A stretch of DNA of 64,000 nucleotides, from contig CM035356.1 of the NCBI GenBank assembly GCA_020137815.1, positions 6,386,001-6,450,000 of the forward strand. The letters run 5' to 3'. The stretch is from Hormiphora californensis (lineage: Eukaryota; Animalia; Ctenophora). The translations under genes were made by a program, and so were the position numbers. The notes beneath the pieces were generated by a model. The model saw only the letters and a program-made list of their open reading frames with translations, did no database searches and was not told the DNA's origin. Below, piece by piece: positions 4,175 to 47,800 of the stretch. Each line of letters opens with the position of its first letter. The stretch's first letter is position 1.

Positions 4175-7100
4175 TTAGTAAGCCCTGATAACGGGTGGGA
4201 CGGTCTTGCACTCCTCCTCATCAAGTGTAATGTCAATAACAGGACGGTAATCGAGAGTCGTTTCACCGGTAGCAGCGTTCTGGTAGGACAGGGTGTGTTT
4301 CCTCCAGTGTTCCTCCAAGGGCTTCTCGACCTGGCCTTCAAGTGGCACCTTGTAGTCGAACTCGTCGATCCTGTAGAGAGGAGAGAGAGTTAGATAGAGA
4401 AAGTAAGAGAGTTAGATAGAGTTAGTTATAGGAGGTAAGAGAGTTAGAGAGGGGGAGAGAGTTACATAGAGAAAGTAAGAGAGTTAGATAGAGAAAGTAA
4501 GAGAGTTAGATAGAGAAAGTTAGAGTTAGATAGGAGGTTACATAATATGAATAGAACGGTGCCCCAACGGTACGGATAGTAGGAGTGTAGGAAGTAATAA
4601 ATTGGGGATAACACTTAACAGTCAAATTAAACACCAGCTAAATTATACATGACTGTAATAGCGATGCGGCCCGGTTCGTAGAGGGCAGTATTTTGTGAGA
4701 CACTACCTATATTTTGAGTCGCCTGACACTGCGCTCCAATACATTACCTGTCAGGGTAGTCCTCACGAGCGTGGGCTCCACGACTCTCCTTCCTTGCACA
4801 GGCACTCTCGATAGTCTGGCAGGCATTCAGAGCAATATTCTGGAGCTCTAGTGTCTCAATTAGGTTCGTGTTCCAGATAAGACCAGTGTCATTGAGGTGA
4901 AGGTGATCCATCTTCTTGTAGACCTCCCTGGAAAAGTGAAACAATTGTGTTAGGGTCTGGGCGAGCACGTTGTGTTTGAGAGAGGGAGAGAGAATAAGAG
5001 TGACTATCAAGACAGCCATATTAAACATAGAAGAAGAATTGTCAACTAAAGAGAACTGATCATATCATGGACTGTCTTCACACTCCTATCAAGACGGTAA
5101 TCCCGTACCTAATTTTCTCGACTCCCTCCTCCAAAACCTCGCCAGTTCGGAAAACAGCCGCATAGTTCTGCATGGTTTTCTGGATCTCCATACGGACTGC
5201 AGCAGTCGTCTCAGTTCCCTGGGCGTGTCGCAGACCGTCAATGTTGGAAATTGATGCCTCGCCTGCGGGGAATTGTTGTGTGAAAACTGTTTGATTTTCA
5301 AACTAAAATAGAGATGTGAAACGGAGTAGTGAGAAAATAAAACAAGACTCTTATATAGAACATTTGAATATAATCACCTGCACTGTCCTTCAGCTCAGCC
5401 TGTGCAGCTCCTGGAGTATAATCCTCTTTGATGGTATGAGCACACGCCCGTCCAAAGGCAACCAAATCTAGGAGAGAGTTAGCTCCCAGCCTGTTGGCCC
5501 CATGCACACTGGCACACGCAGCCTCGCCCGCAGCGAGCAATCCTGGAATAACCTTGTCTTTACCAGTGGCGTGGTCGAAGGTGATCACCTGAGAGGAAAT
5601 AGGTGGTTATTATATTCGGAAAATGTGATTATTATTCGGAAAATGTGAATCGGTACGATGTACGTGATATGGGAGTGTGCGCGGTGTTGCGAGGTCACGT
5701 GACAATTGCTGTCACTGAATGCTTTCCATATGTGCGCGTCACCGCGCCATCCTCCCTCCTTCCCCCGCATCTTACCTCTCCTCTCCAGTTGGTAGGGGTG
5801 CCTCCCATGTTGTAATGGACGGTAGGTAATACGGGAATAGGTTCTCGTGTGACATCTACTCCGGCAAAGATCATGGCAGTCTCGGAAATTCCAGGGAGTC
5901 GCAGGGCAAGCTGTTCCGAAGGCAAGTGAGAAAGCTGGGAGGAACGTTCGTTACTAATTTTGGATTCTGGAACGAAGCCAAAAATCGTCACACACACGTA
6001 CACACACGTCACACACACTAATAAAACAATTTGATTTTTCTAACCTGTAGATGAATATGGTCTCCCTCAGGTCCACAGCCTCGTCCCTCTCTTATCTCAA
6101 TTGTCATGGCCCTACTGACGACGTCTCGAGAAGCCAAATCCTTTGCATTAGGTGCATATCTTTCCATGAATCTCTCTCCATTTTTGTTGGTCAAGAAACC
6201 GCCCTCCCCTCGGCATCCCTCTGTAATGAGACATCCTGCTCCGTAGATGCCTGGAGAGGGAGGGATTGAGGAGATATTAGAGCGAGGGGTGAGGCTGTTA
6301 GGTATACATTTGAGTTGTTCATTTAGACCACCCTTCAAGTAATCGAAATCCAGCTAAAGAAGAAGAAAAGTCCAGCAAAAAGAGCGTTCAAAATTCACCG
6401 ACCCCAAGGGGATTATAATTGTGGCCGGGGGATCATCCCTAAGACTCACCGGTTGGGTTCAAATCAATACTAACCAGTTGGGTTCAAATCAATACTCACC
6501 AGTTGGGTTGGTGACGCGGTCACCCCTCCACTAGGGCCGCGCGAAGCTCGTGTCATCACCAACCAGTTGGGTTCAAATCAATACTAACCAGTTGGGTTCA
6601 AATCAATACTAACCAGTTGGGTTCAAATCAATACTCACCAGTTGGGTTCAAATCAATACTCACCAGTTGGGTTCAAATCAATACTAACCAGTTGGGTTCA
6701 AATCAATACTAACCAGTTGGGTTCAAATCAACATTAATACTAACCAGTTGGGTTCAAATCAACATCAATACTCACCAGTTGGGTGAAACTGCACAAACTC
6801 CATGTCCTGGTTGGGTAGGCCAGCTCGTGTTACCATAGCAGTACCATCCCCAGTACACGTGTGAGCACTGGTACATGAGAAATAGGCCCTTCCGTAACCT
6901 CCACTTGCTAGGACCGTGTTTTGAGATCTGAATCTGTGGATACTACCGTCTTCCATACACATTGCAACCACACCTGGGGAGAGTGTATACAGGTTAGAGC
7001 AAGAGAGGGAAAAGAAGTGCTGGGTTCTAAAAACTCATATATTTTCCCTCTCTTGCTCTAAAATGTATCTATAAAGTTGTGAGCAAGAGAGGGAAAAGAT

Positions 7101-10100
7101 ATGTTTTTTTCGGACCTTTTAGATGCTATTTTTATACCTAAACTTTAGTCATAAATATAGCGTCAAAAAGCATTGCCTGCTGCTTATATTATTATGCCCT
7201 CACGACAATTGTATTACTTAACAACAGGGTGACTCTATTGTTTGTGTACACAGATCAGTACACACATTATCACTGTCAGTATACACTTCGGTGAAATACA
7301 ATATGCAGGAACCGACCGAATCAGGAAATACTGGTCCCTGATTGGCTGATAACCAGTCACGTGACCTAAATAACGAGTTCTGATTGGTTGTTTACTTGTG
7401 TCGGTCGGTTCCTGACAATATGGCTGTGTGACTTCACGCAGACATATAATTGTACATTTACACAATGTTTCCCTCTCTCTGTCATGTATGTTGCATGTCT
7501 ACTTATTACCAGTGTGTGGGTGTGTTAAAATTGAACCGAACTGTGTTGTGTGTTCACTGTTCATTAGGAACAGTGTAAATTGTCACACTCTTTTTTCTCT
7601 CACATTTCACTAAAAACTCACCCTTGCATTCTCACATTTCATTAAAAACTCACCCTTGCATTTCACTAAAAACTCACCCTTGCATTCTTACATTTCACTA
7701 AAAACTCACCCTTGCATTTCACTAAAAACTCACCCTTGCAATTCACTAAAAACTCACCCTTGCATTCTTACAATTCACTAAAAACTCACCCTTGCATTTC
7801 ACTAAAAACTCACCCTTGCATTTCACTAAAAACTCACCCTTGCATTTCACTAGAAACTCACCCTTGCATTTCACTAAAAACTCACCCTTGCATTCTTACA
7901 TTTCACTAAAAACTCACCCTTGCAATTCACTAAAAACTCACCCTTGCATTCTTACAATTCACTAAAAACTCACCCTTGCATTTCACTAAAAACTCACCCT
8001 TGCATTTCACTAAAAACTCACCCTTGCATTTCACTAAAAACTCACCCTTGCATTTCACTAAAAACTCACCCTTGCATTTCACTAAAAACTCACCCTTGCA
8101 TTTCACTAAAAACTCACCCTTGCATTCTCACATTTCACTAAAAACTCACCCTTGCATTCTCATATTTCACTAAAAACTCACCCTTGCATTCTCACAATTC
8201 ACTAAAAAACTCACCCTTGCATTCTCACAATTCACTAAAAACTCACCCTTGCATTCTCATATTTCACTAAAAACTCACCCTTGCATTTCACTAAAAACTC
8301 ACCCTTGCAATCTCACATTTCACTAAAAACTGACCCTTGCATTCTCACATTTCACTAAAAAACTCACCCTTGCATTTCACTAGAAACTCACCCTTGCATT
8401 TCACTAAAAACTCACCCTTGCATTCTTACATTTCACTAAAAACTCACCCTTGCAATTCACTAAAAACTCACCCTTGCATTCTTACAATTCACTAAAAACT
8501 CACCCTTGCATTTCACTAAAAACTCACCCTTGCATTTCACTAAAAACTCACCCTTGCATTTCACTAAAAACTCACCCTTGCATTTCACTAAAAACTCACC
8601 CTTGCATTTCACTAAAAACTCACCCTTGCATTTCACTAAAAACTCACCCTTGCATTCTCACATTTCACTAAAAACTCACCCTTGCATTCTCATATTTCAC
8701 TAAAAAACTCACCCTTGCATTCTCACAATTCACTAAAAACTCACCCTTGCATTCTCATATTTCACTAAAAAACTCACCCTTGCATTTCACTAAAACCTCA
8801 CCATTGCATTCTTACAATTCACTAAAAACTCACCCTTGCATTTCACTAAAAACTCACCCTTGCATTCTCACATTTCACTAAAAACTCACCCTTACATTTC
8901 ACTAAAAACTCACCCTTGTATTCTTAAATTTCACTAAAAACTCACCCTTGCATTCTCTCATTTCACTAAAAACTCACCCTTGCATTCTCACATTTCACTA
9001 AAAACTCACCCTTGCATTCTCACAATTCACTAAAAACTCACCCTTGCATTCTCATATTTCACTAAAAACTCACCCTTGCATTCTTACATTTCACTAAAAA
9101 ACTCACTCTTGCATTCTCATATTTCACTAAAAACTCACCCTTGCATTCTCAAATTTCACTAAAAACTCACCCTTGCATTCTTACATTTCACTAAAAACTC
9201 ACCCTTGCATTCTTACATTTCACTAAAAAACTCACCCTTGCATTCTCACATTTCACTAAAAAACTCACCCTTGCATTTCACTAAAACCTCACCATTGCAT
9301 TCTTACAATTCACTAAAAACTCACCCTTGCATTCTTACATTTCACTAAAAACTCACCCTTGCATTCTCACATTTCACTAAAAAACTCACCCTTGCATTTC
9401 ACTAAAAAACTCACCCTTGCATTCTCACCTTTCACTAAAAACTCACCCTTGCACTCTTGCATTTCACTAAAAACTCACCCTTGCATTTTACTAAAAACTC
9501 ACCCTTGCAATCCACTAAAAACTCACCCTTACATTCTTACATTTCACTAAAAACTCACCCTTGCATTTCACTAAAAACTCACCCTTGCATTCGCCGTCCT
9601 CCATGATAAGGTCCAGTGCGAAATACTCGATAAAGTAGCTACAGTTGTAGGCGAGAGATCGGCCGTATAGTGTGTGGAGAAGGGAGTGACCTGTCCTGTC
9701 CGCAACGCAACAACACCTATCGAGAGTGGATAATTTTAAATTAATCACTATCAAACATTAGGGGGTATGTATAAACCCGGATAACCCGGATAACCCGGAT
9801 AGTCCGGATAATTGATGTTTTAGAGATATATCTGGATAACCAAGCTCGGATATGGGACTCCGGATAACTCGGATACTGAAATCCGGATAACTTGGATAAC
9901 TCGGATAAGGGTCCGAATAACTCGGATAAATGTCCGGATAACTCGGATAAGGGTCCGGATAACTCGGATAAGGGTCCGGATAACTCGGATAAGGATCCGG
10001 ATAACTCGGATAAATGTCCGGATAATTGATGTTTTAGAGATATCCGGATAACCAAGCTCGGATATGGGACTCCGGATAACTCGGATACTGAAATCCGGAT

Positions 10101-11919
10101 AACTTGGATAACTCGGATAAGGGTCCGGATAACTCGGATAAATGTCCGGATAACTCGGATAAGGGTCCGGATAACTCGGATAAGGGTCCGGATAACTCGG
10201 ATAAATGTCCGGATAACTCGGATAAGGGTCCGAATAACTCGGATAAATGTCCGGATAACTCGGATAAATGTCCGGATAACTCGGATAAGGGTCCGGATAA
10301 CTCGGATAAATGTCCGGATAACTCGGATAAGGGTCCGGATAACTCGGATAAATGTCCGGATAACTCGGATAAATGTCCGGATAACTCGGATAAGGGTCCG
10401 GATAACTCGGATAAATGTCCGGATAACTCGGATAAGGGTCCGGATAACTCGGATAAATGTCCGGATAACTCGGATAAATGTCCGGATAACTCGGATAAGG
10501 GTCCGGATAACTCGGATAAATGTCCGGATAACTCGGATAAGGGTCCGGATATCTCTAAAACATCAATTATCCGGAATATCCGGGTTATCCGGGTTTATAC
10601 ATACCCCCTAGTGTTCCTTTTTTAGGGGCCACCCTGTAACTTACCTGTGAGCCTGGCCACCCTTCCCGTAGTTATAACTCTGTCCACCGAATGCTCTTTG
10701 GTAAATAAGTCCCTCGTCAGTCCGACTGAATGGCATGCCATAGTTTTCCAACTCGATAACTGCCTTGGGCGCTTCTCTGGAGAATGGAGTATGGGCGTTG
10801 GAAAATATTGAATAGTATCAGTTTCATATTCTAACCCAGGAGGAGCCCTCTAACCCTTCTAAGTATTGAGAGAGAGATAGCGAGACTTTGGAGTGAGATT
10901 CAAGTAATGCAAATAATTTGTATTTTATAACACACCTGCACATGTAGTGAATGGCATCTTGATCGCCCAACCAATCGCTACCCTTCACTGTATCGTAATG
11001 GTGCCACCTCCAATCATCAGTCTCCATGTTACCCAGAGCAGCGTTGATACCACCTGAGGGGTGGGGAACAATTAGGGAACAATTAGGGAACAGTTATGGA
11101 ACAATTAGGGAACAATTAGGGAACAGCTAGGGAACTATTAGGGACCAAGGGGGTTAAATCTGATGAGCTTTATAGAAGTAGAAAATGAAAAAAATTTCAC
11201 CTCACTAGGCTGTCACAAGGATCTTCAGATAAAACACACTAGACCTACCTTGAGCAGCGACGGTGTGTGATCGTGTGGGGAAGAGTTTGCTAATTACAGC
11301 TGTTTTGAAACCCGCCTCGGCACATCCGAATGCTGCCCGTAACCCGGCACCACCGGCACCAACTACCACTGTGTCATAGGTGTGATCTACCACGGTGTAG
11401 TTGCCGTGCATCTGGTCTGTAGGGGTGGATGAGGAGGGGTTAGAGAGGTGGGGATGGGGTTAGAGGGTGGAGGGGGTGGTTTTAGGGGGTCAGCGGGATG
11501 GAGGAGGGGAGTTATAATAGTCTTGAGGGGGGGCAACCAAGCGAAAACATCACACGTTCTCTCACACAAGCAGAAATCGGGCGTGAGAGAGAGAGAGAGG
11601 GATACCCATGCAAACCCAACGAAAACATGTCCTCTCATCTCTCATTAATCAAATGTGTTCTAAACCATGGTGACATCCTAAAAATACTTTAATCCTCCTG
11701 ATCCTTCCCTCTCTCAATCTTTGAGATTGAGAGGAGGATGGAGAGAGCTGAAGGGAGAGAGCGAGAGAATGTGTGAGTGAGAGAGAGAGAACGTGTGAGT
11801 GAGAGAGAGAACTAACCAGGTCTTGAAGAGTTGGCCGCTGATCCGACAGGGCAAATGTGAAGGGATCTGGCAGCAAGCCTCTTGGCGGCTGAAACAGCTG
11901 AGCTACTTCGGGTTATCAT
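4175..11919 (-). CDS. SDHA: Succinate dehydrogenase flavoprotein subunit, mitochondrial (12 coding exons)
   Basis: Exons 11817-11919, 11249-11416, 10936-11053, 10645-10776, 9583-9716, 6776-6973, 6045-6250, 5776-5934, 5378-5588, 5109-5262, 4748-4927, 4175-4370; all GT-AG and phase-consistent. Motifs [103 protein letters not shown]; Arg/Ser/Ala-rich transit peptide. Confidence 0.98.
4380..4545 (-). repeat. Degenerate ~22-bp repeat of the branch-point region (CTAACTCTCT...) in the last SDHA intron
   Basis: Repeated GAGAGTTAGATAGAGAAAGTAA on +, directly upstream (minus strand) of the acceptor at 4371. Confidence 0.7.
6444..6785 (-). repeat. 25-bp tandem array of the SDHA exon6/intron6 donor junction
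   Basis: Minus-strand unit TGAACCCAACTG|GT(G/T)AGTATTGATT; true junction CACCCAACTG|GTGAGTATTGAT at 6776/6775; ~11 copies, interrupted by a ~50-bp insert at ~6510-6560. Confidence 0.9.
7306..7414. mobile_element. hAT-like MITE (CAGGAACCGACCG TIR), copy 2
   Basis: Same TIRs as the 511 copy; perfect 8-bp target-site duplication ACAATATG (7298-7305, 7415-7422). Confidence 0.92.
7601..9591 (-). repeat. 24/32-bp tandem array of the SDHA exon5/intron5 donor junction (~70 copies)
   Basis: Minus-strand unit CAAGG|GTGAGTTTTTAGTGAAATG with an optional extra 8 nt (TGAGAATG/TAAGAATG); true junction GAATGCAAGG|GTGAGT at 9583/9582. Confidence 0.95.
9759..10610. mobile_element. Non-autonomous TIR element with internal 21-bp GGATAA-based tandem repeats (SDHA intron 4)
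   Basis: TAGGGGGTATGTATAAACCCGGATAACCCGG...CCGGGTTATCCGGGTTTATACATACCCCCTA; internal CCGGATAACTCGGATAA(GGGT/ATGT) array; no clear TSD. Confidence 0.8.
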
Positions 11920-12294
11920 TGTGCTACAGCAAAGGAGTAATAGGTTAGGGGCGGCATCAAATTGGAGGACCTTTGGTCTTACGGCTACTGAGGGGGGCAG
12001 ACGGGTTGAAAAAGTCACTTTCGGTGTTAGGAAACATTAGGAAACATTAGGAAACACATTGAGTGGGTGCAAGTAAAGATTTCATCAAGAAAAAAGAAAA
12101 GAGAACTTAAACGCCCACACTAAAGTGGCGTGTAAGATTAAAATATAACTGAACAACATCAACTTTAAATTAAACTCATCCCGCAGCGTTTATATAATAA
12201 AATTTTTTACACATGCTACATTTTTTCTGAAATTTAACTGCGATCTACCCCAATACAACGTCATCAAAAACAGCAACAAAATATTAAACCAACA

Positions 12295-15200
12295 CTACTT
12301 TGGGTTGATCTGTACAGCGTTATCTCTCTCCAAGTTAGCAAATGGATCAACATGTGCCTCCTCGTTAACTCGTGTTAACAAAAGGATAACGGTTAACATT
12401 CCAAATAGACTGATGATCAATATAACTATCCAACGGCGGAGATTAGCAGAAAAGGGATCGTCTCTCGTCCGACTTTTTGACACATGCAATCTGAGATCGG
12501 GAGATGATAAATTAGGGTCGGGGTGAGTAACAAATGGGTGAGTAACAAATGGAGAACAATTTTCTGAGGAAGGTGTTGTGGGAAGAATTATTACCTGAGC
12601 CATCGGGTCAACCATTCTTTCAAACTACGACGTCTGTATTTATCCTCATCACAGTCAAATGATGCTACACTGGGTCTGACTGGCTCCTCCCGTGAGTCTA
12701 CCGCTACCTTGCTCCTGTCATAGGAACCTGTGTGGAGAACAAATGAGGGGGTTAGGAACCTGTGTGGAGAACAAATGAGGGGGTTAGGAACCTGTGTGGA
12801 GAACAAATGAGGGGGTTAGGAACCTGTGTGGAGAACAAATGAGGGGGTTAGGAACCTGTGTGGAGAACAAATGAGGGGGTTAGGAACCTGTGTGGAGAAC
12901 AGATGAGGGGGTTAGGAACCTGTGTGAAGAACAAATGAGGGGGTTAGGAACCTGTGTGGAGAACAAATGAGGGGGTTAGGAACCTGTGTGGAGAACAAAT
13001 GAGGGGGTTAGGAACCTGTGTGGAGAACAGATGAGGGGGTTAGGAACCTGTGCGGAGAACAGATGAGGGGGTTAGGAACCTGTGCGGAGAACAGATGAGG
13101 GGGTTAGGAACCTGTGTGAAGAACAAATGAGGGGGTTAGGAACCTGTGTGGAGAACAAATGAGGGGGTTAGGAACCTGTGTGAAGAACAAATGAGGGGGT
13201 TAGGAACCTGTGTGGAGAACAAATGAGGGGGTTAGGAACCTGTGTGGAGAACAGATGAGGGGGTTAGGAACCTGTGTGGAGAACAAATGAGGGGGTTAGG
13301 AATCTGAGTGAAGAACAAATGAGGGGGTTAGGAACCTGTGTGGAGAACAGATGAGGGGGTTAGGAACCTGTGTGGAGAACAAATGAGGGGGTTAGGAACC
13401 TGTGTGGAGAACAAATGAGGGGGTTAGGAACCTGTGTGAAGAACAAATGAGGGGGTTAGGAACCTGTGTGGAGAACAAATGAGGGGGTTAGGAACCTGTG
13501 TGGAGAACAGATGAGGGGGTTAGGAACCTGTGTGGAGAACAAATGAGGGGGTTAGGAACCTGTGTGGAGAACAGATGAGGGGGTTAGGAACCTGTGTGAA
13601 GAACAGATGAGGGGGTTAGGAACCTGTGTGAAGAACAAATGAGGGGGTTAGGAACCTGTGTGGAGAACAAATGAGGGGGTTAGGAACCTGTGTGGAGAAC
13701 AAATGAGGGGGTTAGGAACCTGTGTGGAGAACAAATGAGGGGGTTAGGAACCTGTGTGGAGAACAAATGAGGGGGTTAGGAACCTGTGTGGAGAACAGAT
13801 GAGGGGGTTAGGAACCTGTGTGGAGAACAAATGAGGGGGTTAGGAACCTGTGTGGAGAACAGATGAGGGGGTTAGGAACCTGTGTGGAGAACAAATGAGG
13901 GGGTTAGGAACCTGTGTGGAGAACAAATGAGGGGGTTAGGAACCTGTGTGAAGAACAAATGAGGGGGTTAGGAACCTGTGTGGAGAACGAATGAGGGGGT
14001 TAGGAACCTGTGTGGAGAACAAATGAGGGGGTTAGGAACCTGTGTGGAGAACAAATGAGGGGGTTAGGAACCTGTGTGGAGAACAGATGAGGGGGTTAGG
14101 AACCTGTGTGGAGAACAAATGAGGGGGTTAGGAACCTGTGTGGAGAACAAATGAGGGGGTTAGGAACCTGTGTGGAGAACAGATGAGAGGGTTAGGAACC
14201 TGTGTGAAGAACAAATGAGGGGGTTAGGAACCTGTGTGGAGAACAAATGAGGGGGTTAGGAACCTGTGTGGAGAACAGATGAGGGGGTTAGGAACCTGTG
14301 TGAAGAACAAATGAGGGGGTTAGGAACCTGTGTGGAGAACAAATGAGGGGGTTAGGAACCTGTGTGAAGAACAAATGAGGGGGTTAGGAACCTGTGTGAA
14401 GAACAAATGAGGGGGTTAGGAACCTGTGTGGAGAACAAATGAGGGGGTTAGGAACCTGTGTGGAGAACAAATGAGGGGGTTAGGAACCTGTGTGGAGAAC
14501 AGATGAGGGGGTTAGGAACCTGTGTGGAGAACAGATGAGGGGGTTAGGAACCTGTGTGGAGAACAAATGAGGGGGTTAGGAACCTGTGTGAAGAACAAAT
14601 GAGGGGGTTAGGAACCTGTGTGAAGAACAAATGAGGGGGTTAGGAACCTGTGTGGAGAACAAATGAGGGGGTTAGGAACCTGTGTGGAGAACAAATGAGG
14701 GGGATAGGAACCTGTGTGGAGAACAGATGAGGGGGTTAGGAACCTGGGTGGAGAACAAATGAGGGGGTTAGGAACCTGTGTGGAGAACAAATGAGGGGGT
14801 TAGGAACCTGTGTGGAGAACAAATGAGGGGGTTAGGAACCTGTGTGAAGAACAGATGAGGGGGTTAGGAACCTGTGTGGAGAACAGATGAGAGGGTTAGG
14901 AACCTGTGTGGAGAACAAATGAGGGGGTTAGGAACCTGTGTGGAGAACAGATGAGGGGGTTAGGAACCTGTGTGGAGAACAAATGAGGGGGTTAGGAACC
15001 TGTGTGAAGAACAAATGAGGGGGTTAGGAACCTGTGTGGAGAAAAGATGAGGGGGTTAGGAACCTGTGTGGAGAACAAATGAGGGGGTTAGGAACCTGTG
15101 TGAAGAACAAATGAGGGGGTTAGGAACCTGTGTGGAGAACAAATGAGGGGGTTAGGAACCTGTGTGGAGAACAAATGAGGGGGTTAGGAACCTGTGTGGA

Positions 15201-18200
15201 GAACAGATGAGGGGGTTAGGAACCTGTGTGGAGAACAAATGAGGGGGTTAGGAACCTGTGTGGAGAAACAAATGAGGGGGTTAGGAACCTGTGTGGAAGA
15301 ACAAATGAGGGGGTTAGGAACCCTGTGTGAGAACAAATGAGGGGGTTAGGAACCTGTGTGGAGAACAAATGAGGGGGTTAGGAACCTGTGCGGAGAACAG
15401 ATGAGGGGGTTAGGAACCTGTGTGGAGAACAAATGAGGGGGTTAGGAACCTGTGTGGAGAACAAATGAGGGGGTTAGGAACCTGTGGTGGAGAACAAATG
15501 AGGGGTTAGGAACCTGTGTGGAGAACAGATGAGGGGGTTAGGAACCTGTTGTGGAGAACAAATGAGGGGGTTAGGAACCTGTGTGAAGAACAAATGAGGG
15601 GGTTAGGAACCTGTGTGAAGAACAAATGAGGGGGTTAGGAAACCTGTGTGGAGAACAAATGAGGGGGTTAGGAACCTGTGTGGAGAACAAATGAGGGGGT
15701 TAGGAACCTGTGTGGAGAACAGATGAGGGGGTTAGGAACCTGTGTGGAGAACAGATGAGGGGGTTAGGAACCTGTGTGAAGAACAAATGAGGGGGTTAGG
15801 AACCTGTGTGGAGAACAAATGAGGGGGTTATGGAACCTGTGTGGAGAACAAATGAGGGGGTTAGGAACCTGTGTGAAGAACAAATGAGGGGGTTAGGAAC
15901 CTGTGTGGAGAACAAATGAGGGGGTTAGGAACCTGTGTGGAGAACAAATGAGGGGGTTAGGAACCTGTGCGGAGAACAGATGAGGGGGTTAGGAACCTGT
16001 GTGGAGAACAAATGAGGGGGTTAGGAACCTGTGTGGAGAACAAATGAGGGGGTTAGGAACCTGTGTGGAGAACAAATGAGGGGGTTAGGAACCTGTGTGG
16101 AGAACAGATGAGGGGGTTAGGAACCTGTGTGGAGAACAAATGAGGGGGTTAGGAACCTGTGTGAAGAACAAATGAGGGGGTTAGGAACCTGTGTGAAGAA
16201 CAAATGAGGGGGTTAGGAACCTGTGTGGAGAACAAATGAGGGGGTTAGGAACCTGTGTGGAGAACAAATGAGGGGGTTAGGAACCTGTGTGGAGAACAGA
16301 TGAGGGGGTTAGGAACCTGTGTGGAGAACAAATGAGGGGGTTAGGAACCTGTGTGGAGAACAAATGAGGGGGTTAGGAACCTGTGTGGAGAACAAATGAG
16401 GGGGTTAGGAACCTGTGTGGAGAACAAATGAGGGGGTTAGGAACCTGTGTGGAGAACAAATGAGGGGGTTAGGAACCTGTGTAGAGAACAAATGAGGGGG
16501 TTAGGAACCTGTGTGGAGAACAAATGAGGGGGTTAGGGGGCAAAGAAAATTATTGAATCATGACCCTCTTTTCCTTACAAGAAAGTTAAAATGGGTACGT
16601 GCTGTCAAGTCAAGTCGTAAATAGAAATGACACAGTGGCAAGTTTCTATTGCAACATGACAAAATAAATTCCCGTAACTTGAAGTGGTTACCCTAGTTAC
16701 CATGGTAGTTTAGTCACTCTAGTTACCATGGTAGTTAAGTTACCCTAGTTACCCTGTATAGTAGTACCTGTGTTAGGTGACACAATTCCCACTGGAATGG
16801 AGCTGTCCTGCTTTTTAACCAGGGCCGCAACTGCAGGCGGTGTCTTAGGTTCAACCTCTGCTGCTTCTTGTTGCAGGGGTGGTCCGGGGGATGGCGTAAG
16901 TTTTACCACCGCTAGAAACAGATATTATTGATTATTTCATAGTCCTATTTTCTGCTCAAAGAAAAAAAATAGGGCCGGTTATTTCTAAAGATCAGCATAT
17001 TGTGTTTAAAGCAAAAAAGGTAAGCTATCACCGACTAACCGTTAGTACGTGCGGTTGGCATTGGTGTGCTAGTGTGTATGGGCGGTGGGAGGGTTCTGGG
17101 TACTACTGGCAGGCCGAGACCGGGCCGGGCCCAGGTCTCAGTAGCAAGGCCACTCCTCAGCGCCTCCGCAATGGCAGACTTGTTACTAGGTTCAGGGAAT
17201 ATTCCCTCCTGCGTGAGAGGGGTTTAAACATCATCAGATAGTTTTTACCCTTCAAAACTTCCACCAAAATATCCAACCAAAACAGAAACTTGGTCACGAA
17301 ATGACAACCCTCACACTCTGAGTGGTGATTAATAATTAACTAATTACAGTCGGACCCCGATTTAGTGGCATCCTCGGGGGAAAGAAATCCTGCCACTAAA
17401 TCGGGGTGCCACTAAATCGGGGTGAGCCATATTTGGCCCATAAAAACCTATTTTATGCCCAAAATGCTATACTAAGACTAAAGACACCTGTTATATGCAA
17501 TATTCATGTATTGATGACATGATCATATCTAATTAGAAATAGAAAACTATCAAATAACTTTTTCAAAAAATTTGTGAAAAATTTTCTAAGTCATACCAGC
17601 CCGTCCAATTTGTGTTTCGAATCGGTGCAGCTTCCTGGATGTCCTGTCTAATTAGCAGGTTCGAAACGAACCGATACGTGATACCATGCCGAATCGGTGC
17701 ACCCTAAGCGGGTGAGGAAGTATCAAAATTTCAAAATAACATTTTCTCTCAAAATTTATGGGGAGCACCGATCAAAGCATTGACAATCGTACTGTAAAAT
17801 TTTGCAAAAAAAAGTTTTAAAATTTTTTAAAGGTATACCAGCCACGTCCGAATCGTGTTTCGAATCGGTGCATCTTATCGCATGTCTTGCTGCTAATTAG
17901 ACGGTTCGGAACGAATCGAAACGTGATCCCCATCGAATCGAAATTTTGACGCTTGGTAAACTTATGACTCAATGGCCCCATGGGGATCACGTATCGGTTC
18001 GTTCCGAAATGTTAATTAGCAGCAGGACATGCGATAAGATTCACTGATTCGAAACACGATTTGGACGTGGCTGGTATTCCTTTGAAAAATTTTCAAAAAA
18101 TTTTCAAAAAAATTCACAAAAAAATTCAAAAAAATTTTTGGGGGAAAAAAATCCTGCCACTAAATCGGGGTGCCACTAAATCGGGGGCCACTAAATCGGG

Positions 18201-28316: not shown

Positions 28317-37419
<9,103 letters not shown>

Positions 37420-38377
37420 CGGTTCATGAGATCATTCCGGATATCATCTCACTTCCTGTAATGCTTCATTTTAATGTGTTGAAATATGTAATATAATCAT
37501 TTATATATACCACTTTATAGTGTAAAATAATGGAGCACGCACCAACAGCCTGTAACGCTTGACATACTCGCTCACTTTCAAAAGTGGTGCAAATCTTGCC
37601 TCAAACAAGAGAAATATCAAATCTAACCAAAGTTAGGGTTTTTGAGTTAGCGACATCGAGTAAACACTAGGTACAGCAACGAGTTTTTTGTCTTTCTCGC
37701 CTCACCAGGACAGTGGGAAGTTTCATATGACCCAACTGGCCCCCACTTTTTAGTTCGGTTTCAATTTTATCAATTATCGCTTAATTAAAAAAGGAATCTA
37801 GGTTATGGTCAATCTATCTGCAGGGGTATGAGTAAGAGGGGACTGCTACAGCAACAAAACAACAAAACAACAAACCGACACCGGATTTTTGATCGTTTTT
37901 GAAACATTTTATTTGCTGAGCTGCAGCTGTACCGCAGTACTTAATTATGAGCCGCGCGTATTGTACCGCGCAAAAACATGACGCGCAGCTAATTTCACAA
38001 TTATACACTCCAGCACAACAATTTGTTTGACATAAGCTTAGAGAAATAAAACTTGAATTTGCAACAATAATGTGTTTTCGTTATGAAAAATCGGAAAAGT
38101 AAAAAAATCTGTCAGATAATTTATAAATTTACACCTTATTAATATTTTTCCTTTATTTACATTACATTCAAATATCATATGTAAATATTTTGATATACAT
38201 ATCCATTTCGAAGTGTCAGTATTGGTTATCAATATATTTTGGTGTAACAACGGGGTCTAAAAAGTCTACACATCACTCATTCACTCATCTACAACCTCAA
38301 CTCACCTACACACTACTTCAAGTACTTCAGCTTCATTTCACATGCAACACTTCACCAGCGCCTATAAAACATCACTA

Positions 38378-41300
38378 CTAGTTTTCCTGCAGTTGGAGGT
38401 GTCCTTTTGGTATTTCAGTACGTTGTTCCTCCTCTTGATTCTCCATGGTAACGACAGTCTCCTCCCTAGCAACCGTCTCCATGGCATCCGGTTCATCAGT
38501 GAACTCCTGATGGTTTATTGGTTTCACTCGTTTTACCATCATTACAGATATGGTCGAGAGTGCTATGCAGCCACAACCAATTAGTGTCCACACGTCCGGG
38601 TACTCCCTGTAGGAAAAATGAACATGAATTTAGTGGATTGGGGACAAGGGACTCGGATCTAGTGTGCAGATAGACCCTCTGGAATATTGCAGATTGATTC
38701 AGTCACTAATGAAACAAAGGAAGAGAGTTCATCTACAGAAGAAAGAAAAACTCAAAAGATCACCGCTAATCAACAAACTAGCCGATATAGTATACCACAC
38801 ATCACACCATATATTACCTGAAAATGAGAAACTGGAACCCAAAAGGCAGGATGACATCCAGGTACTTTAGAAGGGAAGTTTTACCGGGTTGTCCATACTG
38901 CATCGCTGCACAGACTGACAGTTGTTGGAGACAGTACATTAACCCAACCATCCACAGGTAGGTAAAGTTCTGAGGGAGGAATCAGATAGGAGATTAGGAG
39001 GTTTTGAGAGGGATTGCAGTAGTTGTGTGAGGGAGATAGGAGGTTTTGAATTGGGAGATATGCGGTTCTGAGAGGGGGAGATGAAGTTCTGAGAGGGGGA
39101 GATGTGGTTCTGAGAGGGGGAGATGTGGTTCTGAGGGAGGGAGATGTGATTCTGAGGGAGGGAGATGTGGTTCTGAGAGAGGGAGATGTGGTTCTGAGAG
39201 AGGGGAGATGTGGTTCTGAGAGAGGGAGATGTGGTTCTGAGAGAGGGAGATGTGGTTCTGAGGGAGGGAGATGTGATTCTGAGGGAGGGAGATGTGGTTC
39301 TGAGGGAGGGAGATGTGGTTCTGAGGGAGGGAGATGTTTACTGTGTAGTTGTATGAGGGAGAGATAGGAGGTTCTGAATTGGGAGATATGGTTTGGAATT
39401 GGTTCTCGTTTACTGGGGCCTGGGCCGCGGGGGATCGATAAGAGGAGGTTTTGTCTGGCAACCCGATATGAGCGCACTGTTTGAGAGTCAAAACGGGGTC
39501 TTGTGTGTAGAATTAGATGGACTCGGTTGAAGCAAGATCAAAACCAGCTTCATTCTTCTATCTTCATGAAGACATGGCCTCTCATTTTTTACAACTAATT
39601 ACCAGAATTGAAGGCAATGTCCAGGTTTTCTTCATGTCCTTGTCTGCAATGCTTTCAACCAATACGGTTACTGAAAAGGAAGAGTGAGTGAGAGGACGAG
39701 TGAGTGTAGAGACACGACATCTATGACATGGTAAGCACATATGGTATCCACATGATAACCACATGCTATGCACATGGTATCCAAATGGTAACCACATGGT
39801 AACCACATGGTAACCACATGGCAACCACATGGTAAATACATGGTAACCACATGGTAACCACATGGTAACCACATGGCAACCACATGGCAACCACATGGTA
39901 ACCACATGGTAACCACATGGTAACAAGCTATAATTACCCATAAGAATGAGTGTAGAGACAAGAAATCCAAGGGAACTCAGACACATTACTATCACAGTTG
40001 TAGGGACTGCCCCGGTACACGATACTGACACATACTTTGCTGCCTTGAAGAAGCCTCTTCCTGTTGTTCGGAGGGATTGTAGGTTAGTATCTCTATTATA
40101 ATTTGGAGATGTCGCGTCGAAGTGGCCGTTCGTTCAGTGCGTTTCTAAGCGACAGTGCTCCTTCATAAAACACTTCATATGACGAAAGCTGTAAATCTGT
40201 TATTCACACTTTTGGAACTTCCGGTGGAAGTTTGTTAATATTTTTGAATGACTTTCAACATGTCAGTTCCGAAAGCTATCAATTCAGTTGCCATGGCAAC
40301 CGTGTTATTGACGTGGAAGGGGGCGAAAAGAACCACCCGGCGAAGCCGGGTGGGTTATCAAAAAGCCCTTACTTGAGGCGCACCCAATGGGTGCGCTAGT
40401 ACTAGGTATAATTAGGATTTAGGCTGCCCGGGTTTCTTGTGTTTGAAACTGTGATTGTTTTAGTCTGAGAAATACTGATTACTGAATGATGAAATGATCT
40501 GCTGATAATGTCATAACATTACCTAGAGCGACGACAATGGAGATATAGAAAACAGGAGAGCTCCTCCCACTCTCTCCACCCCCAAATATAAAGGAAGGCT
40601 GGGCCACAAAGAACACCCCAACGGTTGCCACCACAAGGGAGATGTAGTCAAATATCAGGAGTTTTTCTTTCAGGAACACGTGAGATAGGAGGACTGTGAA
40701 GATCGGAGCTGTAGTCAGAAGGAGGGTCGCCTCACCTGTAAATTACAGTGTAATGGAGCTGTTACCATGGTTACCTGGTCACCGGGGTTACTAGGAAGCG
40801 ATGTACAGGGGATTACGCGATGTGCCCAACGGGGTTACCAAGGTTACCATTAAGGTTACCAGGTTACCAAAGTTACTCGAACCCCTCTCTTTCGAACTCC
40901 ATTTTGGGCAGGCCACAGCGGTAGTAACAACACACCCTACCTACCGATGGGAAGATGACGGAGGGCAAAGACAGTTGACATTGCGGTAAGTGTTCCCAGA
41001 ATGGCCGTCAGCACTATCATCCTCCAGTTTTGGTATTCCGTGGGTCCTGGGTACCTGGTCAAGGGGGAGGTATAGTAATCAACTCAGTAATAAAAATAAG
41101 TTCAAAATAACGGGTGACAACTAAAAATCTGGACACTTTTCTGTGAGCTCTAGCGCCGTCCCCGTTTGAGATACAGCTTCAGGCCAGTGATAGAACGAAT
41201 TTTCAGACAATTTTGAATCAGAATAACACAACGGGAAAGACTTAAAAGTTCATTTTCATTGCGATATCGCATCACTTCCTCTTCCCCCACCAAAGCATGT

Positions 41301-43062
41301 GTTACGTGAAATTTACACACTTTTCTAGCACCTCTAGCACCAGTTCTTTTTGAGATACAGCTTCGGGGCAGCGATAGAATGATTTTTTAGACAATTTTGA
41401 ACGAAATTAACTTTGTTCCACACTCCGTTAATCTCAACTCTGATCACAGAATCATCTGTAACAAACCTTTCAAATCGTAGTTTACAGGTAATTTGAGAAA
41501 TCGCCATTTTGACGATCTCTCGAAACATTTATGACGTGGAAAACCAACTCCCTGATAAGCTAAAATGTTGAAACTTGGCAGTTATGTTGGTTATGGCATG
41601 AACAACCAGACTTCCAATTTTGAGAATTCTATTTCATCGGGAAGGTTGTTTCTGATCACATAGAAATCTCAAATCTCCGTACTACATGCTTTGGTGGGTC
41701 AAGAGGAAATGATGCGATATGGCAATGAAAATGAACTTTTTAGTTTTTCCCGTTATGTTATTCTGATTCAGAATTGCCTGAAAATTCGTTCTATCACTAG
41801 CCCGAAGCTGTATCTCAAACGAGACCGGCGCTAGAGCTCACAGAAAAATGTCCAGATTTTTAGTTGTCACCCGTTATATAGATCCGTCAACATTAGAAGG
41901 GAATGATTACCTACCCCTGCAGGCAACCATTGTTACCCCTGGCAACCAGAAAAACAACTTACAAAAAGGGAATGATTACTAATTACCTACCCCTGGTAAA
42001 AGTTTATGAGGCAGGTGATAGCTAGTGTAAAGAAAAACCTCCACCAAAGTATCTCCACAATGGGCATGTCCTTTATCAAATCTGCAACAGGATATCAGAG
42101 CTTGTTACCATGGTTACCATGGTTACCAGGAGATCAGAGCTTGTTACCATGGTTACCATGGTTACCAGGAGATCAGGTCGGTCAACAGCAGCAGGGATCA
42201 ATGGAAGCAGGATTTGGGAATTGGGAGGTATAAAAGGGAGAGAGAGTCGAGCGAGGCAAGGGAAATCAACACACCGTGGTTTGGGAGCCGTACGGTATAT
42301 ATAATGGATATAGTTATTCAGTCAGACCCCGATTTACCGGGATTCTCATGGGAAAGGGAATCGGGGTTCCGGTATATCGGGGCCTGGTAAATCGGGGTCC
42401 GAGTATACCTGTGAATAATGAGCATATGGCAAAGAAGAAACAGGAGAGAACTGTGTAGAAGTAAACCCAATAGTCATCAGGCATGGCCGATATTATCTCC
42501 TTCCCCCGGCGAGTCAGCCAGCTTTGTTCTGCGTATAGCCGTAGCTTTCCAACCAACTCAAATACTGACATCACCCACTTCTGTAGGGGGGATTGGTGTG
42601 TTTTAGCGGTGCTCACAGTCCTAACAAACTAAAACAAAATGCAACTGAGCAGCAGCAGCTGTATGCATAATTAATTGGAATATGTGCAGTAGTGAGAAAT
42701 ATTTTGTAGTCTATGTAGTAGTAGTAGAACCAAACCAGTGGTCCAACCACATTGGATCAAATGAGCTGTACGGTACTGCTGCAGCTATAAAGTGTCAAAA
42801 ACCATTCAATTTGAATTACAGTCGGACCCCGATTTAGTGGCATCCTCGGGGAAAAAATCCTGCCACTAAATCGGGGTGCCACTAAATCGGGGGCCACTAA
42901 ATCGGTGTCCGACTGTAATTCAAAGCAAGTTGCTTGAGTTTCAAACTAAATATTACCTTGACAGTGAGGTTGATGTTTCTAAATTCCACGATAGATAGCT
43001 CTGAGAGATCTTTTAGTTTATCTCGCGCTGAGGCCTTGTAGACCAGCCAATCGTAATACCAC
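38378..43062 (-). CDS. SLC35G-like EamA/DMT-family transporter; first exon not located
   Basis: Exons 42957-43062, 42409-42628, 41991-42081, 40945-41054, 40523-40735, 39938-40060, 39603-39670, 38818-38969, 38378-38606, phase-consistent. Motifs [81 protein letters not shown]. Confidence 0.88.
38967..39385 (-). repeat. 21-bp tandem array of an SLC35G acceptor junction
   Basis: Minus-strand unit CACATCTCCCTCCCTCAG|AAC; true junction TTCCTCCCTCAG|AACTTT at 38970/38969; about 13-14 clean copies at 39060-39335. Confidence 0.85.
39735..39925. repeat. 11-bp tandem repeat GGTAACCACAT next to an SLC35G donor
   Basis: Directly visible; begins ~12 nt into the intron. Confidence 0.9.
40090..40399 (+). 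mobile_element. Non-autonomous Helitron
   Basis: A|TCTCTATTATAAT 5' end; 3' GC-rich hairpins (ACCCGGC-GAA-GCCGGGT; GCGCACCCA-A-TGGGTGCGC) followed by CTAG|T. Confidence 0.7.
41108..41876. mobile_element. Long-TIR (~200 bp) non-autonomous DNA transposon, TA-flanked
   Basis: TAACGGGTGACAACTAAAAATCTGGACA...TGTCCAGATTTTTAGTTGTCACCCGTTA; inverted similarity extends to the CCCACCAAAGCATGT / ACATGCTTTGGTGGG pair. Confidence 0.88.
42819..42915. mobile_element. Short CAGTCGGACCCCG-family MITE, TA TSD
   Basis: TA|CAGTCGGACCCCGATTTAG...CTAAATCGGTGTCCGACTG|TA; related copies at ~26010-26097 and ~42319-42403. Confidence 0.85.
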
Positions 43063-43580: not shown

Positions 43581-43770
43581 TCGAAGGGACATGGGTCCAT
43601 GCCATGGGTTTTCTGATCATGGCTCCTTAATTTTCGATCGCACCTCGAATTTTCCATCTGACGACTTATAGTGTCGAGAACCATTGCAACGTGTGATCAA
43701 TACATTCAGCTGAAGCACTACATGGACAAGGCAGGCTGTTCGAAAGAACGAAGAAACGAAGAGAAAGATT

Positions 43771-43996: not shown

Positions 43997-44059
<63 letters not shown>

Positions 44060-44854: not shown

Positions 44855-47800
44855 TCACTCTGTTGATCGTTTGTTCACGTACTCGTACAGATTACCCTCG
44901 TCACACTCGGTACAACTACAGTACTGGATCTGCTGGATTTCAATGTCTTGGACGACACCTGGAGGAAGAGAGGAGGGTTAGTTGTATGTTGGTGATGTTC
45001 GGCACGGAGTGACGGCCGGTTAATGTAACGTGAAAGGTGAAGACATCATATAATATAATATTCAAGTATTTCAATAGTACAACATAAATTAGGAGAATGA
45101 TCAGCTATAGATGTTTGGAACACGAACAGAACTGTCAGAGCATGGACCTGACAGGAACAAACTGGTATAATAACCTACCGAAACAGTCGAAAGAATGCAC
45201 TTCGGTCAGCATGGTTGGAAGACAACACTTGCAGGTTGTGATCAGTTGCCCATAATCGTCCCTCGCTTGAGATCGCTCACAGGGTGAATACTCAAAGCAG
45301 TATTTGATGATAATCGGGTTAACCTGTAACAATATCGGGCCGTTATGATCAGCATTTAATTATATTAGTGAGCAGGTATGTTACCCCTCTGCACTATACT
45401 ACAGTACTACAGTACTTAATACTAGCTCACGGATATGCTATAATAGGGGTGACTTCGCGTAACTAAGCTACTTACCGAGACACAGATGGTATCGTTGTGA
45501 ACAACTGTTATCTTGTCAGTAGGGAGGACAGTCTGGACGGAACATTTTGGAAGGGAGCCAGGTGGTGCGGTAGTGACGGTTGGTTTAACGGTGGTTTCAG
45601 GTTCTGCTGAGGTGGTCGCAATGGGGGAGGTCGCTGTAGGGGGAGGAATGTGTTAGCAATTTGATGATGTAATCCCTCTCTCTTGCCCTAATAATTCAGT
45701 AGCTGGTTACCCCTTCCTCCTCCCTTGCCAAACAAACAATGGGGTAACCTGGGGGTAACCAGTAGTGTCACCAGGGGGTAACCAGGAGGTAACCAGGAGG
45801 TAACCAGTGGGTAACCATTGGATACCAACAACACATACCCCCGAAACTTACTTGTAATAGTTCGTGTCTTCTTGCAAATGTGTAGGGTAGGTTTGTAGTG
45901 GCCAGTTGTTGCGTCCTCATTATCGGTAAAGAGAGGTACAGATCCTTCTGTAGTTTCATCGTCAGCAATCAGTACGAAACCGTAGTTCTCCTCCACTCCG
46001 TTCTCTGCCCAGTCGGCGAGTGTGTCGGCAATGTTCACCTGCACACAGTGGTAATTAGGGAGATATTTAAGAATTGTTCTTAAATTTCAACCTAAAATAT
46101 AAATTTTGACTCGTAATATTGACCTACAGGAGGAACGAGTAAAACTAGGGAGGAAGGGAGACTGAGAGAGGTTTGAGAGACAAAGAAAGCAGGGGAGTAA
46201 AAAGACAGAGCATTGTAAAAAATATTTGTAAAAAAAGGAACAGCTCTTTCTGCTAAGTACATACCCAGATGGCAGTGCCTCCCACTTGGTCAATAGAGAC
46301 AACAGCCTCCCCAATCGATTGGGAGTTGTAGTTTGTTTTGATGTCGTCCCAAGACACTGTATCTTCATTCCAATCAGTCGTGATCTAGGGGGGACAATAA
46401 GACATTATCTCTTGCTCAAACTAATCATCTCCAAGATAACCAAGATCTTTGGGGCGTATAACTATAAAGATAAACAGATCTTATATAAGTTTCACCTATT
46501 ACCCCCTCGGCCTCAATATATTGCTTCGGCCCGGTGTGATCGAGCCGACAGCTACTGAGAACATGTCAATCACTAATTATTAATTAGTAATTAATTAATT
46601 ACCTTGTACACAGAGAAGGAAGTGTTTCTTGTGCTGTCAGTGCTACTTGGTTTCAGGTAGTTCAACTTGATCCACCCGTCATTTACCTCTACATACTTGA
46701 AATCTAGGAGGAACCCGGGGATTAGCCAAAATAAAGACAAATGTTCAAGTGAGCTCTCACACTAAAGAGATAATTGCTAGATAATTAATGACTTAGTTAA
46801 CAAATTAGTCATCTACATAATTACCAAACTACAAATTAAAAACAACGGTGGTTTTTATATTCTATATAATTACCAAAATAAGAAACTTACTACTTCCAAT
46901 GACGGAACTGACATCAAACTTAATAACGGTCCTGTACACGTTTCCATCAACATCCTTTCCGACAGTCAGGGACTCATTGTTGTATCCCTTATCGTCATTG
47001 TGCACCAGAAGGGTCGTGGCAGTCACTTCAACGGTCTTCTCGTAGAAACTATCCGATTCGTTACAAACCTGGGGGTGAATGATGTTATATTAGTACTTAG
47101 TAGTAGAGTTATATTATTAGTGATTGAGTTATATGAGTAGTAGTAGAGTTATATTACTAGTTATTGAGCTATATTAGTAGTGATAGCAATATTATATCAG
47201 AGCAATTGAATCTGGGGGAAAAGTACTAAAGTAGGAGCATAGTACTCCCATGGGGGGAATCCATAATCAAACGGGTGGGGGATCAAGCAAAAGAATTAAA
47301 CTTACAGGAACGTCGACGATTTTGTAGCAAATATCGATGTAAGGGATGAACTCAGTGACATCGGAATCGTTGGTGAAACTATAATATCGGATATCCTTGG
47401 CTGATGTTCCTTCAGTTGATCCATCAGTGTACTTGTTCACCAACGCAACACCATAGTTAACCTACGCATAATATAATTACAAGACAAATCTCTCCACTTC
47501 AGAGCTTCATATTCCACCTCAAATGAAGATTAACTCATACCTTGTTATCACTGGAATCGTAAGGGCTGATCCATTCCCGGATGGTGTCAGTGAAATCAGC
47601 GACAACTTCCTTGTCATAAGTTGGTTCCTTGTTCAATGGGTCAAACTCTCCGGTTTTGTCCTACAAAATAAATTATTTCAAACCAAGAAACACAATCGAT
47701 TGAAAATTATAAAGTACTGGGACATAGAAATGGATAAAAAAGTTAAAAAAAGAAATATAACCTACCCCTAAATTCTGTTCAGAAGTCAACTGTCCGGTAG

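What the first reader, a model, noticed from the sequence alone, without database searches (positions are those of the whole stretch)
4380..47170. Window-wide pattern: intronic tandem repeats are amplified copies of each intron's own splice signals
Seen: in at least four unrelated genes the repeat unit spans the exon/intron junction itself. Donors: SDHA 9583 (~70 copies), SDHA 6776 (~11), SLC35G 41991 (2), Ig gene 34037 (2). Acceptors: ZFPL1 12727 (~119), SLC35G 38969 (~14), Ig gene 28782 (3), nested gene 35971 (2). Many other introns carry branch-point arrays. The units share no sequence with each other, so this is not a transposon family, and the functional site is always the exon-proximal copy. 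A series from 2 to >100 copies is present. Inference: a mutational process focused on splice junctions (microhomology-seeded slippage, possibly coupled to transcription or splicing) drives intron expansion here. The spliceosome would then have to ignore dozens of perfect decoys (strict exon definition) or use them (recursive splicing, NMD-coupled regulation). The null alternative is general slippage filtered by selection. I am not aware of this being described as a system, but I cannot check the literature.
Basis: partly seen in the sequence, partly recalled or inferred. Interest (0 to 1): 0.88.

Follow-up and report, generated by a model that had tools for sequence, protein, structure and literature searches.

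The report
Splice-junction "mirage" repeats in comb jelly
Several introns of a comb jelly carry tandem copies of their own exon edge and splice signal (up to about 117), a repeat type already named "mirage" in lancelets; RNA joins at the true site in the two places tested, and the copies likely come from ordinary repeat growth in short introns rather than from a process aimed at splice sites.

Summary
The window is ctenophore DNA. In 45 modelled introns, six duplications span a splice junction: SDHA donors 9583 and 6776, SLC35G donor 41991, and acceptors ZFPL1 12727, Ig/FN3 28782 and SLC35G 38969. RNA contigs use the exon-proximal donor at both SDHA arrays; no acceptor array was tested with RNA. 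The class is known: lancelet "mirages" (PMC3087553, PMC3902484) and human F7/CBS/LMNB2 minisatellites (PMC1557585). This scan has noted it in other genomes too, once window-wide. Junction-spanning events are not clearly more frequent than random placement predicts: 6 versus 2.7-5.2 expected (P 0.03-0.43), and 3-4 versus 2.9-4.2 with TRF alone. Minisatellites lie nearer intron ends than chance (P 0.004-0.026), though only in long introns, several with inserted interiors. Junction arrays are also larger (median 385 versus 67 nt, P 0.002). Best reading: ordinary slippage seeds them, and a unit kept intact by selection lasts and grows. New for ctenophores in my searches; one selected window cannot settle a genome-wide bias.

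The parts
4175..11919 (-). SDHA, 12 exons, 654 codons
   Evidence: open spliced frame, all GT-AG; SDHA homologues; tblastn of P0003 over all exons
7598..9592 (-). SDHA intron 5 donor array, 24/32-nt units with 9 exon bases; true donor follows 9583; a 12-unit block occurs twice
   Evidence: RNA contigs of 4 of 4 runs join exon 6 to the exon-5 end
6440..6784 (-). SDHA intron 6 donor array, 25-nt unit, about 11 copies in two blocks; true donor follows 6776
   Evidence: RNA joint skipping 525 nt in 3 of 4 runs
11064..11148 (-). SDHA intron 2 branch-point array (11 nt x7.7), ends 10 nt before the acceptor
4382..4533 (-). SDHA intron 11 branch-point/pyrimidine array (about 22 nt), ends 11 nt before the acceptor
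12295..18661 (-). ZFPL1, 6 coding exons
   Evidence: open frame; P0124 and Bolinopsis P0126 align across the junctions
12721..16537 (-). ZFPL1 intron 4 acceptor array, 32 nt x about 119 (branch motif, pyrimidine tract, CAG, 7 exon bases); true acceptor precedes 12727
   Evidence: exon homology; no RNA laid here
28317..37416 (-). Ig + FN3-like single-pass membrane protein gene, 7 exons
   Evidence: open frame; Ig domain by Pfam; FN3 label from my reading of the sequence, no Pfam hit on the two short exons scanned
28775..28863 (-). Ig/FN3 intron 5 acceptor array, 29 nt x3, 8 exon bases
34182..34425 (-). Ig/FN3 intron 2 branch-point array (12 nt x20, CTAAC)
32323..32362 (-). Ig/FN3 intron 3 branch-point array (7 nt x5.7)
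34019..34038 (-). 10-nt doublet at the Ig/FN3 intron 3 donor (2 exon bases)
35891..35990 (+). two diverged copies of a candidate acceptor before a nested 192-codon open frame (35972-36550)
   Evidence: junction unverified, no Pfam hit
38376..43062 (-). SLC35G/EamA-type transporter gene, 9 modelled exons, 5' end not modelled
   Evidence: open frame; P0121/P0122 alignments; EamA
38967..39390 (-). SLC35G intron 7 acceptor-derived repeats: 21-mer array 39060-39337 inside a larger diverged duplication
41897..41995 (-). SLC35G intron 3 donor, one diverged extra copy
47098..47184 (-). branch-point array in intron 3 of the mucin-like gene's modelled part

Best explanation
These are mirage-type minisatellites whose units span or abut an intron's own splice signals, and they likely start as ordinary slippage duplications that hit a splice signal often because the introns are short, then likely persist and grow because selection keeps one copy of the unit intact. 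Step 1 (shown): units of about 24-32 nt hold exon edge plus donor, or branch motif plus acceptor plus exon edge, and end in 2-4 nt homologies. Step 2 (inferred): such a duplication is tolerated only if the exon-side copy keeps a whole signal, so the functional site is the exon-proximal one by construction. Step 3 (inferred): a neutral seed can decay or be deleted in both copies, while a signal-bearing seed cannot fall below one intact copy, so it has more time to be amplified by slippage and unequal exchange. Step 4 (shown for two donors, inferred for acceptors): the spliceosome uses the copy that has a full exon beside it; decoys carry only 3-10 exon bases, and most mis-splices would hit a stop at once and likely be degraded.
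For: Median intron 220 nt, 45 introns. Spanning events 6 of 26 non-transposon duplications versus 4.0 expected (P 0.18); 6 of 32 versus 5.2 with transposon-internal ones (P 0.43). TRF only: 4 of 36 versus 4.2, 3 of 30 versus 3.7, 3 of 23 versus 2.9. No lean to the ends in the 19 arrays of short introns (mean quantile 0.457, P 0.26). Junction arrays are bigger, not clearly commoner: median 385 versus 67 nt, P 0.0016; 4 of the 5 largest. A 12-unit block is repeated in the SDHA array, as unequal exchange would give. RNA contigs: 525-nt intron skipped to the exon-proximal donor in 3 of 4 runs; exon 5 end joined to exon 6 in 4 of 4 runs, although the first SDHA intron 5 decoys would stay in frame. 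Decoy use gives a stop within 1-6 codons at SDHA intron 6, ZFPL1, Ig/FN3 and SLC35G intron 3. Precedent: PMC3087553, PMC3902484, PMC1557585.
Against: If only tolerated placements count, spanning is 6 versus 2.7 (P 0.032). 21 of 26 non-transposon events touch or lie within 30 nt of an intron end versus 10.0 expected (P 3e-8; 21 of 32 versus 12.1, P 9e-5; P 0.002 with doubled seed lengths); the 30-nt zone was chosen after seeing the data. Short homologies are scarcer across junctions (4-mers 2.5 and 4.3 per 1000 versus 10.5 in interiors), so a homology-weighted null would expect fewer spanning events. The lean to the ends is strong in the 11 arrays of long introns (0.19, P 6.5e-5); inserted or nested sequence was shown inside 4 of the 5 long introns that hold them (SDHA intron 5, ZFPL1 intron 2, Ig/FN3 introns 2 and 3), not inside Ig/FN3 intron 5. 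The protected-seed step is untested. RNA came from other individuals whose arrays may differ, and contigs drop rare isoforms.
Confidence: 0.62

Rival explanations
1. A mutational process focused on splice signals (for example transcription- or spliceosome-coupled breaks or R-loops repaired by microhomology slippage) creates duplications preferentially at junctions and branch points.
For: End lean of minisatellites, mean quantile 0.36-0.41, P 0.004-0.026, absent for microsatellites (0.56-0.69). Acceptor-side 30-nt zone 9 versus 2.7, P 4e-4. All 6 CTAAY-repeating events are at acceptor ends. Homology supply is lower at junctions and not higher in the branch zone.
Against: Spanning count at chance in the TRF-only test. 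Zone result falls to 4 versus 1.8 (P 0.10) at 20 nt. No lean in short introns. The window was picked from very many for showing this pattern. Nothing here links breakpoints to a fixed distance from the junction: exon bases per unit run from 2 to about 30.
Confidence: 0.2
2. Pure chance plus selection of this window: no bias of any kind in the genome, and the size difference is a fluke of two very large arrays.
For: Only 6 spanning events; two arrays give 64% of the added intron bases; detector yields about 0.65 false hits per 26 shuffled sequences.
Against: Rank test on sizes is not driven by two values alone (P 0.0016); threshold-free end lean holds at three TRF cut-offs.
Confidence: 0.12
3. 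The decoys are used: recursive splicing or NMD-coupled regulation makes the arrays functional.
For: ZFPL1 and Ig/FN3 decoys read AG|GT; decoy use would mostly give immediate stops, so steady-state RNA could hide it. Human CBS and 6-16 arrays use two extra donors (PMC1557585 Introduction).
Against: ZFPL1 decoys would regenerate GTTCCT, seen in 0 of 45 donors here. Ig/FN3 leftovers would be 29-58 nt, below the shortest intron of 79 nt. SLC35G decoys have no GT. No decoy joint among those listed (11 loose ends were not shown).
Confidence: 0.04
4. The large arrays are assembly artefacts.
For: Scattered one-base indels cluster in part of the ZFPL1 array and the window ends in G/T-rich noise after about 51760, so polishing is imperfect and copy numbers may be off.
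Against: Units come in recurring variants in irregular order (ZFPL1 57/20/19/4 copies of four types; SDHA 27 types); small arrays are too short to be misassembled this way.
Confidence: 0.02

Closest known systems
Amphioxus 'mirage' minisatellites (Adh3, globins BflGb6/BflGb9, troponin C, PGBD5): PMC3087553 (passages), PMC3902484 (one passage); original Canestro et al. 2002 not held, known only as cited there
   Same: Tandem copies of the gene's own exon-intron boundary, at 5' or 3' boundaries, unrelated units of 10-160 nt, several genes in one genome, normal splicing retained, highly polymorphic marine animal.
   Different: A ctenophore; copy numbers up to about 117 against 3-6 for BflGb6; branch-point-only arrays beside them; allele and somatic length variation not tested here.
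Human minisatellites whose first unit spans a donor: F7 IVS7 (37 nt, 5-9 copies), CBS IVS13, 6-16, LMNB2, PDGF intron 4: PMC1557585 (abstract, Introduction, Discussion)
   Same: Unit holds a few exon bases plus the donor; the most upstream donor is used (as at both SDHA arrays).
   Different: All five cases named there are donors; here three are acceptors, where the functional site is the last copy and upstream-first scanning cannot explain the choice.
Tandem repeats at exon-intron boundaries that reshape human genes: PMC2812944 (passages); intron gain by tandem duplication (Rogers model, as cited in PMC3087553)
   Same: Internal tandem repeats at boundaries with cryptic sites.
   Different: No new intron or exon is shown here; the junction positions match homologues at SDHA, ZFPL1 and SLC35G.

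Membership tests
Mirage minisatellites (lancelet) | Repeat unit spans an exon-intron boundary of the host gene | tested here: met
   6 of 45 introns; four are clean tandem arrays
Mirage minisatellites (lancelet) | Both 5' and 3' boundaries can be duplicated | tested here: met
   3 donors, 3 acceptors
Mirage minisatellites (lancelet) | Locus-specific units in the 10-160 nt range | tested here: met
   units 21-32 nt; longest shared word among ten units 9 nt
Mirage minisatellites (lancelet) | Regular splicing of the mRNA is kept | tested here: inconclusive
   met at 2 of 6 arrays (SDHA donors, other individuals, contigs only); the other 4 had no RNA laid
Mirage minisatellites (lancelet) | Length differs between alleles and somatic cells | not testable with these tools
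   no genome or second haplotype held
F7-type donor VNTR | First unit contains the authentic donor and is the one used | tested here: met
   SDHA introns 5 and 6
Transposon- or introner-derived repeat family | Shared sequence between loci, terminal inverted repeats | tested here: not met
   no shared unit sequence; inverted ends found only at other, non-junction elements
Recursive splicing (ratchet points) | AG|GT that regenerates a usable donor and leaves a spliceable remainder | tested here: not met
   GTTCCT matches 0 of 45 donors; Ig/FN3 remainder 29-58 nt; SLC35G has no GT; sequence test only
Recursive splicing (ratchet points) | Intermediate junction or lariat reads | not testable with these tools
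   only assembled contigs were available

The most novel reading that the evidence does not exclude
In this ctenophore, intron growth is led genome-wide by amplification of splice signals themselves (junction and branch-point arrays), either because mutation is focused there or because signal-bearing seeds are protected. The spliceosome then picks the last of more than 100 complete branch-point/acceptor copies, 56 of them identical to the true one, which would make it a strong natural test of exon definition in the earliest-branching animal lineage, one with short introns.
Probability: 0.25. Interest if true: 0.65.

Novelty: new member of a known kind. Interest (0 to 1): 0.3.

Why it matters
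The class is known but its origin is called unclear in the lancelet paper (PMC3087553), and my searches found no genome-wide test of enrichment. This genome offers a dense set for that test. The ZFPL1 array is the useful specimen: the first decoy acceptor sits about 260 nt from the donor, a normal intron length here, yet only the copy 3.8 kb on leads into the conserved exon. How a short-intron animal makes that choice is directly testable. If the bias is only persistence of protected seeds, it is an ordinary curiosity.

Tried and rejected
No whole genome is held for this window, so every enrichment test is on one window. The metagenome scan with a repeat motif of this genome returned 2 short transcript-like contigs without introns, so no independent genomic sample. 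No look-alike stretch among earlier windows (which looked up 2880-14879 only) and no other notes on this genome. RNA was laid on 6030-7100 only; all acceptor arrays and the other donors are untested. The 8 holder runs each carry at most 17% of the stretch's words; I draw nothing on habitat from them. Low complexity as the cause of branch-zone arrays was tested and rejected: short homologies are not commoner there (9.2 versus 10.5 per 1000 for 4-mers), with the caveat that old decayed duplications inflate the interior figure. A better-looking CAG acceptor about 29 nt inside the Ig/FN3 exon at 28782 was rejected because it and the next CAG run into stops. Rows dropped before counting: the nested-gene acceptor (other strand) and a 14-nt exon match in SLC35G intron 6; 6 events were classed as transposon-internal, by eye at first and backed for the host elements; both counts are given. 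Canestro 2002, Gao and Lynch 2009 and Zhuo 2007 are not held. Reed and Maniatis 1986 (duplicated sites need flanking exon sequence) is recalled; one search gave only a listing of papers that hold those terms. No supplements were read.
Full report
Organism and genes. A ZFPL1 exon is 100% identical to EukProt protein P0124 and 76% to Bolinopsis microptera ZFPL1, so the DNA is from a ctenophore. I recall the P0124 id style as that of the Pleurobrachia bachei gene set; that label comes from no call. I modelled 45 introns in 8 minus-strand genes; all are GT-AG, median 220 nt, range 79-4040. SDHA gives a complete 654-codon frame matched exon by exon by P0003. ZFPL1 junctions match P0124 and P0126, SLC35G junctions match P0121 and P0122. 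The Ig/FN3, mucin-like and flower-like models rest on open spliced frames; their names, and UBE3B, are partly my recall.

Observation. A self-alignment detector found 33 local duplications in 22 of 45 introns; it gives about 0.65 false hits per 26 shuffled sequences. Six span a junction: SDHA intron 5 donor (64 CAAGG|GTGAGT), SDHA intron 6 donor (10 exact plus one variant), SLC35G intron 3 donor (2, diverged), ZFPL1 intron 4 acceptor (114 CACAG|GTTCC), Ig/FN3 intron 5 acceptor (3) and SLC35G intron 7 acceptor (12 CTCAG|AAC, array detached by about 90 nt). Six events repeat the sense-strand branch motif CTAAY, all at acceptor ends. Ten tested units share no word above 9 nt. Seeds end in CCTA, GT and AATG homologies at the three arrays examined; in ZFPL1 the CCTA of the branch motif pairs with CCTA in the exon start.

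Which copy is used. Contigs of four RNA runs (at most three samples, three studies) were laid on 6030-7100. Three of four skip 525 nt to the exon-proximal donor of intron 6. All four continue from exon 6 into the true end of exon 5, not into repeat sequence. The first decoys of intron 5 would stay in frame, so decay of stop-carrying RNA does not explain their absence. Limits: other individuals, contigs that drop rare forms, 11 loose ends not shown, and likeness set at 90%. No acceptor array was tested; for those the exon-proximal site is inferred from frame and homology. Decoy use would give a stop within 1-6 codons at the other four arrays checked.

Is it more than chance? I collapsed each array to one unit and placed the seed at random in its own intron. 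Spanning: 6 of 26 non-transposon events versus 4.0 (P 0.18), 6 of 32 versus 5.2 (P 0.43); 6 versus 2.7 (P 0.032) if only tolerated placements count. With TRF alone and no hand filter: 4 of 36 versus 4.2, 3 of 30 versus 3.7, 3 of 23 versus 2.9. So the headline pattern is at most about twofold and not established. Nearness to ends is different: 21 of 26 touch or lie within 30 nt of an end versus 10.0 (P 3e-8), 21 of 32 versus 12.1 (P 9e-5); that zone was chosen after seeing the data and weakens at 20 nt. The threshold-free version gives mean quantiles 0.36-0.41 (P 0.004-0.026) for minisatellites and 0.56-0.69 for microsatellites. It splits into 0.457 for 19 arrays in short introns (P 0.26) and 0.19 for 11 in long ones (P 6.5e-5). 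Long-intron interiors include an RNase H remnant, a nested open frame and dispersed or foldback elements, which inflate the apparent target. Against my reading, short homologies are 2-4 times scarcer across junctions than in interiors. Junction arrays are larger: median 385 versus 67 nt (P 0.0016), 4 of the 5 largest, and two of them supply 64% of the 9 kb that duplication adds to these introns (a post hoc test). All P values come from one window that was picked for this pattern.

Mechanism. Shown: unit anatomy, short end homologies, a repeated 12-unit block in the SDHA array, true-donor use at two sites. Inferred: ordinary slippage seeds; tolerance forces the functional site to the exon side; a seed that holds a needed signal cannot be lost and so lasts and grows; the spliceosome needs a full exon beside the site. 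Upstream-first scanning as shown for F7 (PMC1557585, Discussion) covers the donors. It cannot cover ZFPL1, where 57 of 117 parsed units are of one type, including the true one, and the last is the functional one. There I rely on exon-sequence dependence of duplicated sites (Reed and Maniatis 1986, recalled, not read). Recursive splicing fits poorly: GTTCCT is in 0 of 45 donors and Ig/FN3 leftovers would be 29-58 nt.

Known relatives. Ebner et al. 2010 (PMC3087553, passages) describe tandem repeats spanning exon-intron boundaries in lancelet Adh3 and globins, named mirages, at both boundaries, not disturbing splicing, possibly general in cephalochordates, origin unclear. PMC3902484 (one passage) adds troponin C and PGBD5. 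PMC1557585 (Introduction) lists human F7, CBS, 6-16, LMNB2 and PDGF. PMC2812944 (passages) covers boundary repeats in human duplicated genes. The Hormiphora genome paper (PMC8527503, passages) reports high indel heterozygosity in introns and many nested genes; the passages shown do not mention junction arrays. PMC10078293 (passages) concerns repeat length affecting splicing, not repeats made of splice sites. Searches gave no ctenophore case and no genome-wide enrichment test; most subscription papers are not covered. Earlier notes of this scan report the same class in annelids, sharks, a ray, an urchin and once window-wide; they led me to the mirage paper, which I then read in passages.

Verdict. 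Real, dense and clean, but a new member of a named kind. The claim of a junction-focused mutational system is unproven; size and end-lean effects are worth a genome-wide test. Interest 0.30.

Noticed in passing
window 4047-4156, 16687-16753, 39726-39924, 40760-40870, 42088-42176, 45741-45821, 40287-40300: Many arrays are built on GTTACCATG/GGTAAC-type palindromic words. Five places match an RFX X-box-like consensus (recalled) exactly, against 0 in 100 shuffles; four of the five are copies in one array. If these are regulatory sites, they would be a non-splicing test of the protected-seed idea.
   Followed up: partly
window 18667-18800 (-): A further branch-point doublet (32 nt x2) ends just before a CAG 7 nt upstream of the ZFPL1 start codon; possibly a 5' UTR or trans-splice acceptor. 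Not counted in the tests.
   Followed up: partly
window 39701-39960 (-): 14 nt from near the end of SLC35G exon 6 recur near the 3' end of intron 6, about 246 nt on; may be a decayed donor-side duplication.
   Followed up: partly
window 9754-10615: Foldback element in SDHA intron 4: inverted ends around a 21-nt internal array.
   Followed up: partly
window 17330-18226, 26970-27140, 42313-42408, 42810-42924; 41107-41877: Small inverted-repeat elements with TGCCACTAAATCGGGG repeats, and a larger foldback in SLC35G intron 3.
   Followed up: partly
window 33136-33878 (-): Retroelement remnant (RNase H, zf-RVT; both below Pfam's curated cut-off) inside Ig/FN3 intron 3.
   Followed up: partly
window 35972-36550 (+): Nested antisense open frame of 192 codons with a hydrophobic stretch and tyrosine motifs, no Pfam hit.
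   Followed up: partly
window 48148-51761 and 51760-64000: A 27-nt coding repeat x134 (Ser/Thr/Pro-rich on the minus strand) runs into G/T-rich noise (read to 53000; skew stays extreme to 64000) that looks like failed base-calling.
   Followed up: no
window 700-2330 (-): A long intronless reading frame that looks BTB-like by eye, probably nested in an intron of the UBE3B-like gene.
   Followed up: no
window 43272-43586: 71-nt x4.5 GC-rich repeat upstream of the modelled SLC35G exons, unexplained.
   Followed up: no
window 6173, 6933, 6935: All four RNA runs differ from the window at these SDHA exon positions: allele, species difference or window error.
   Followed up: no
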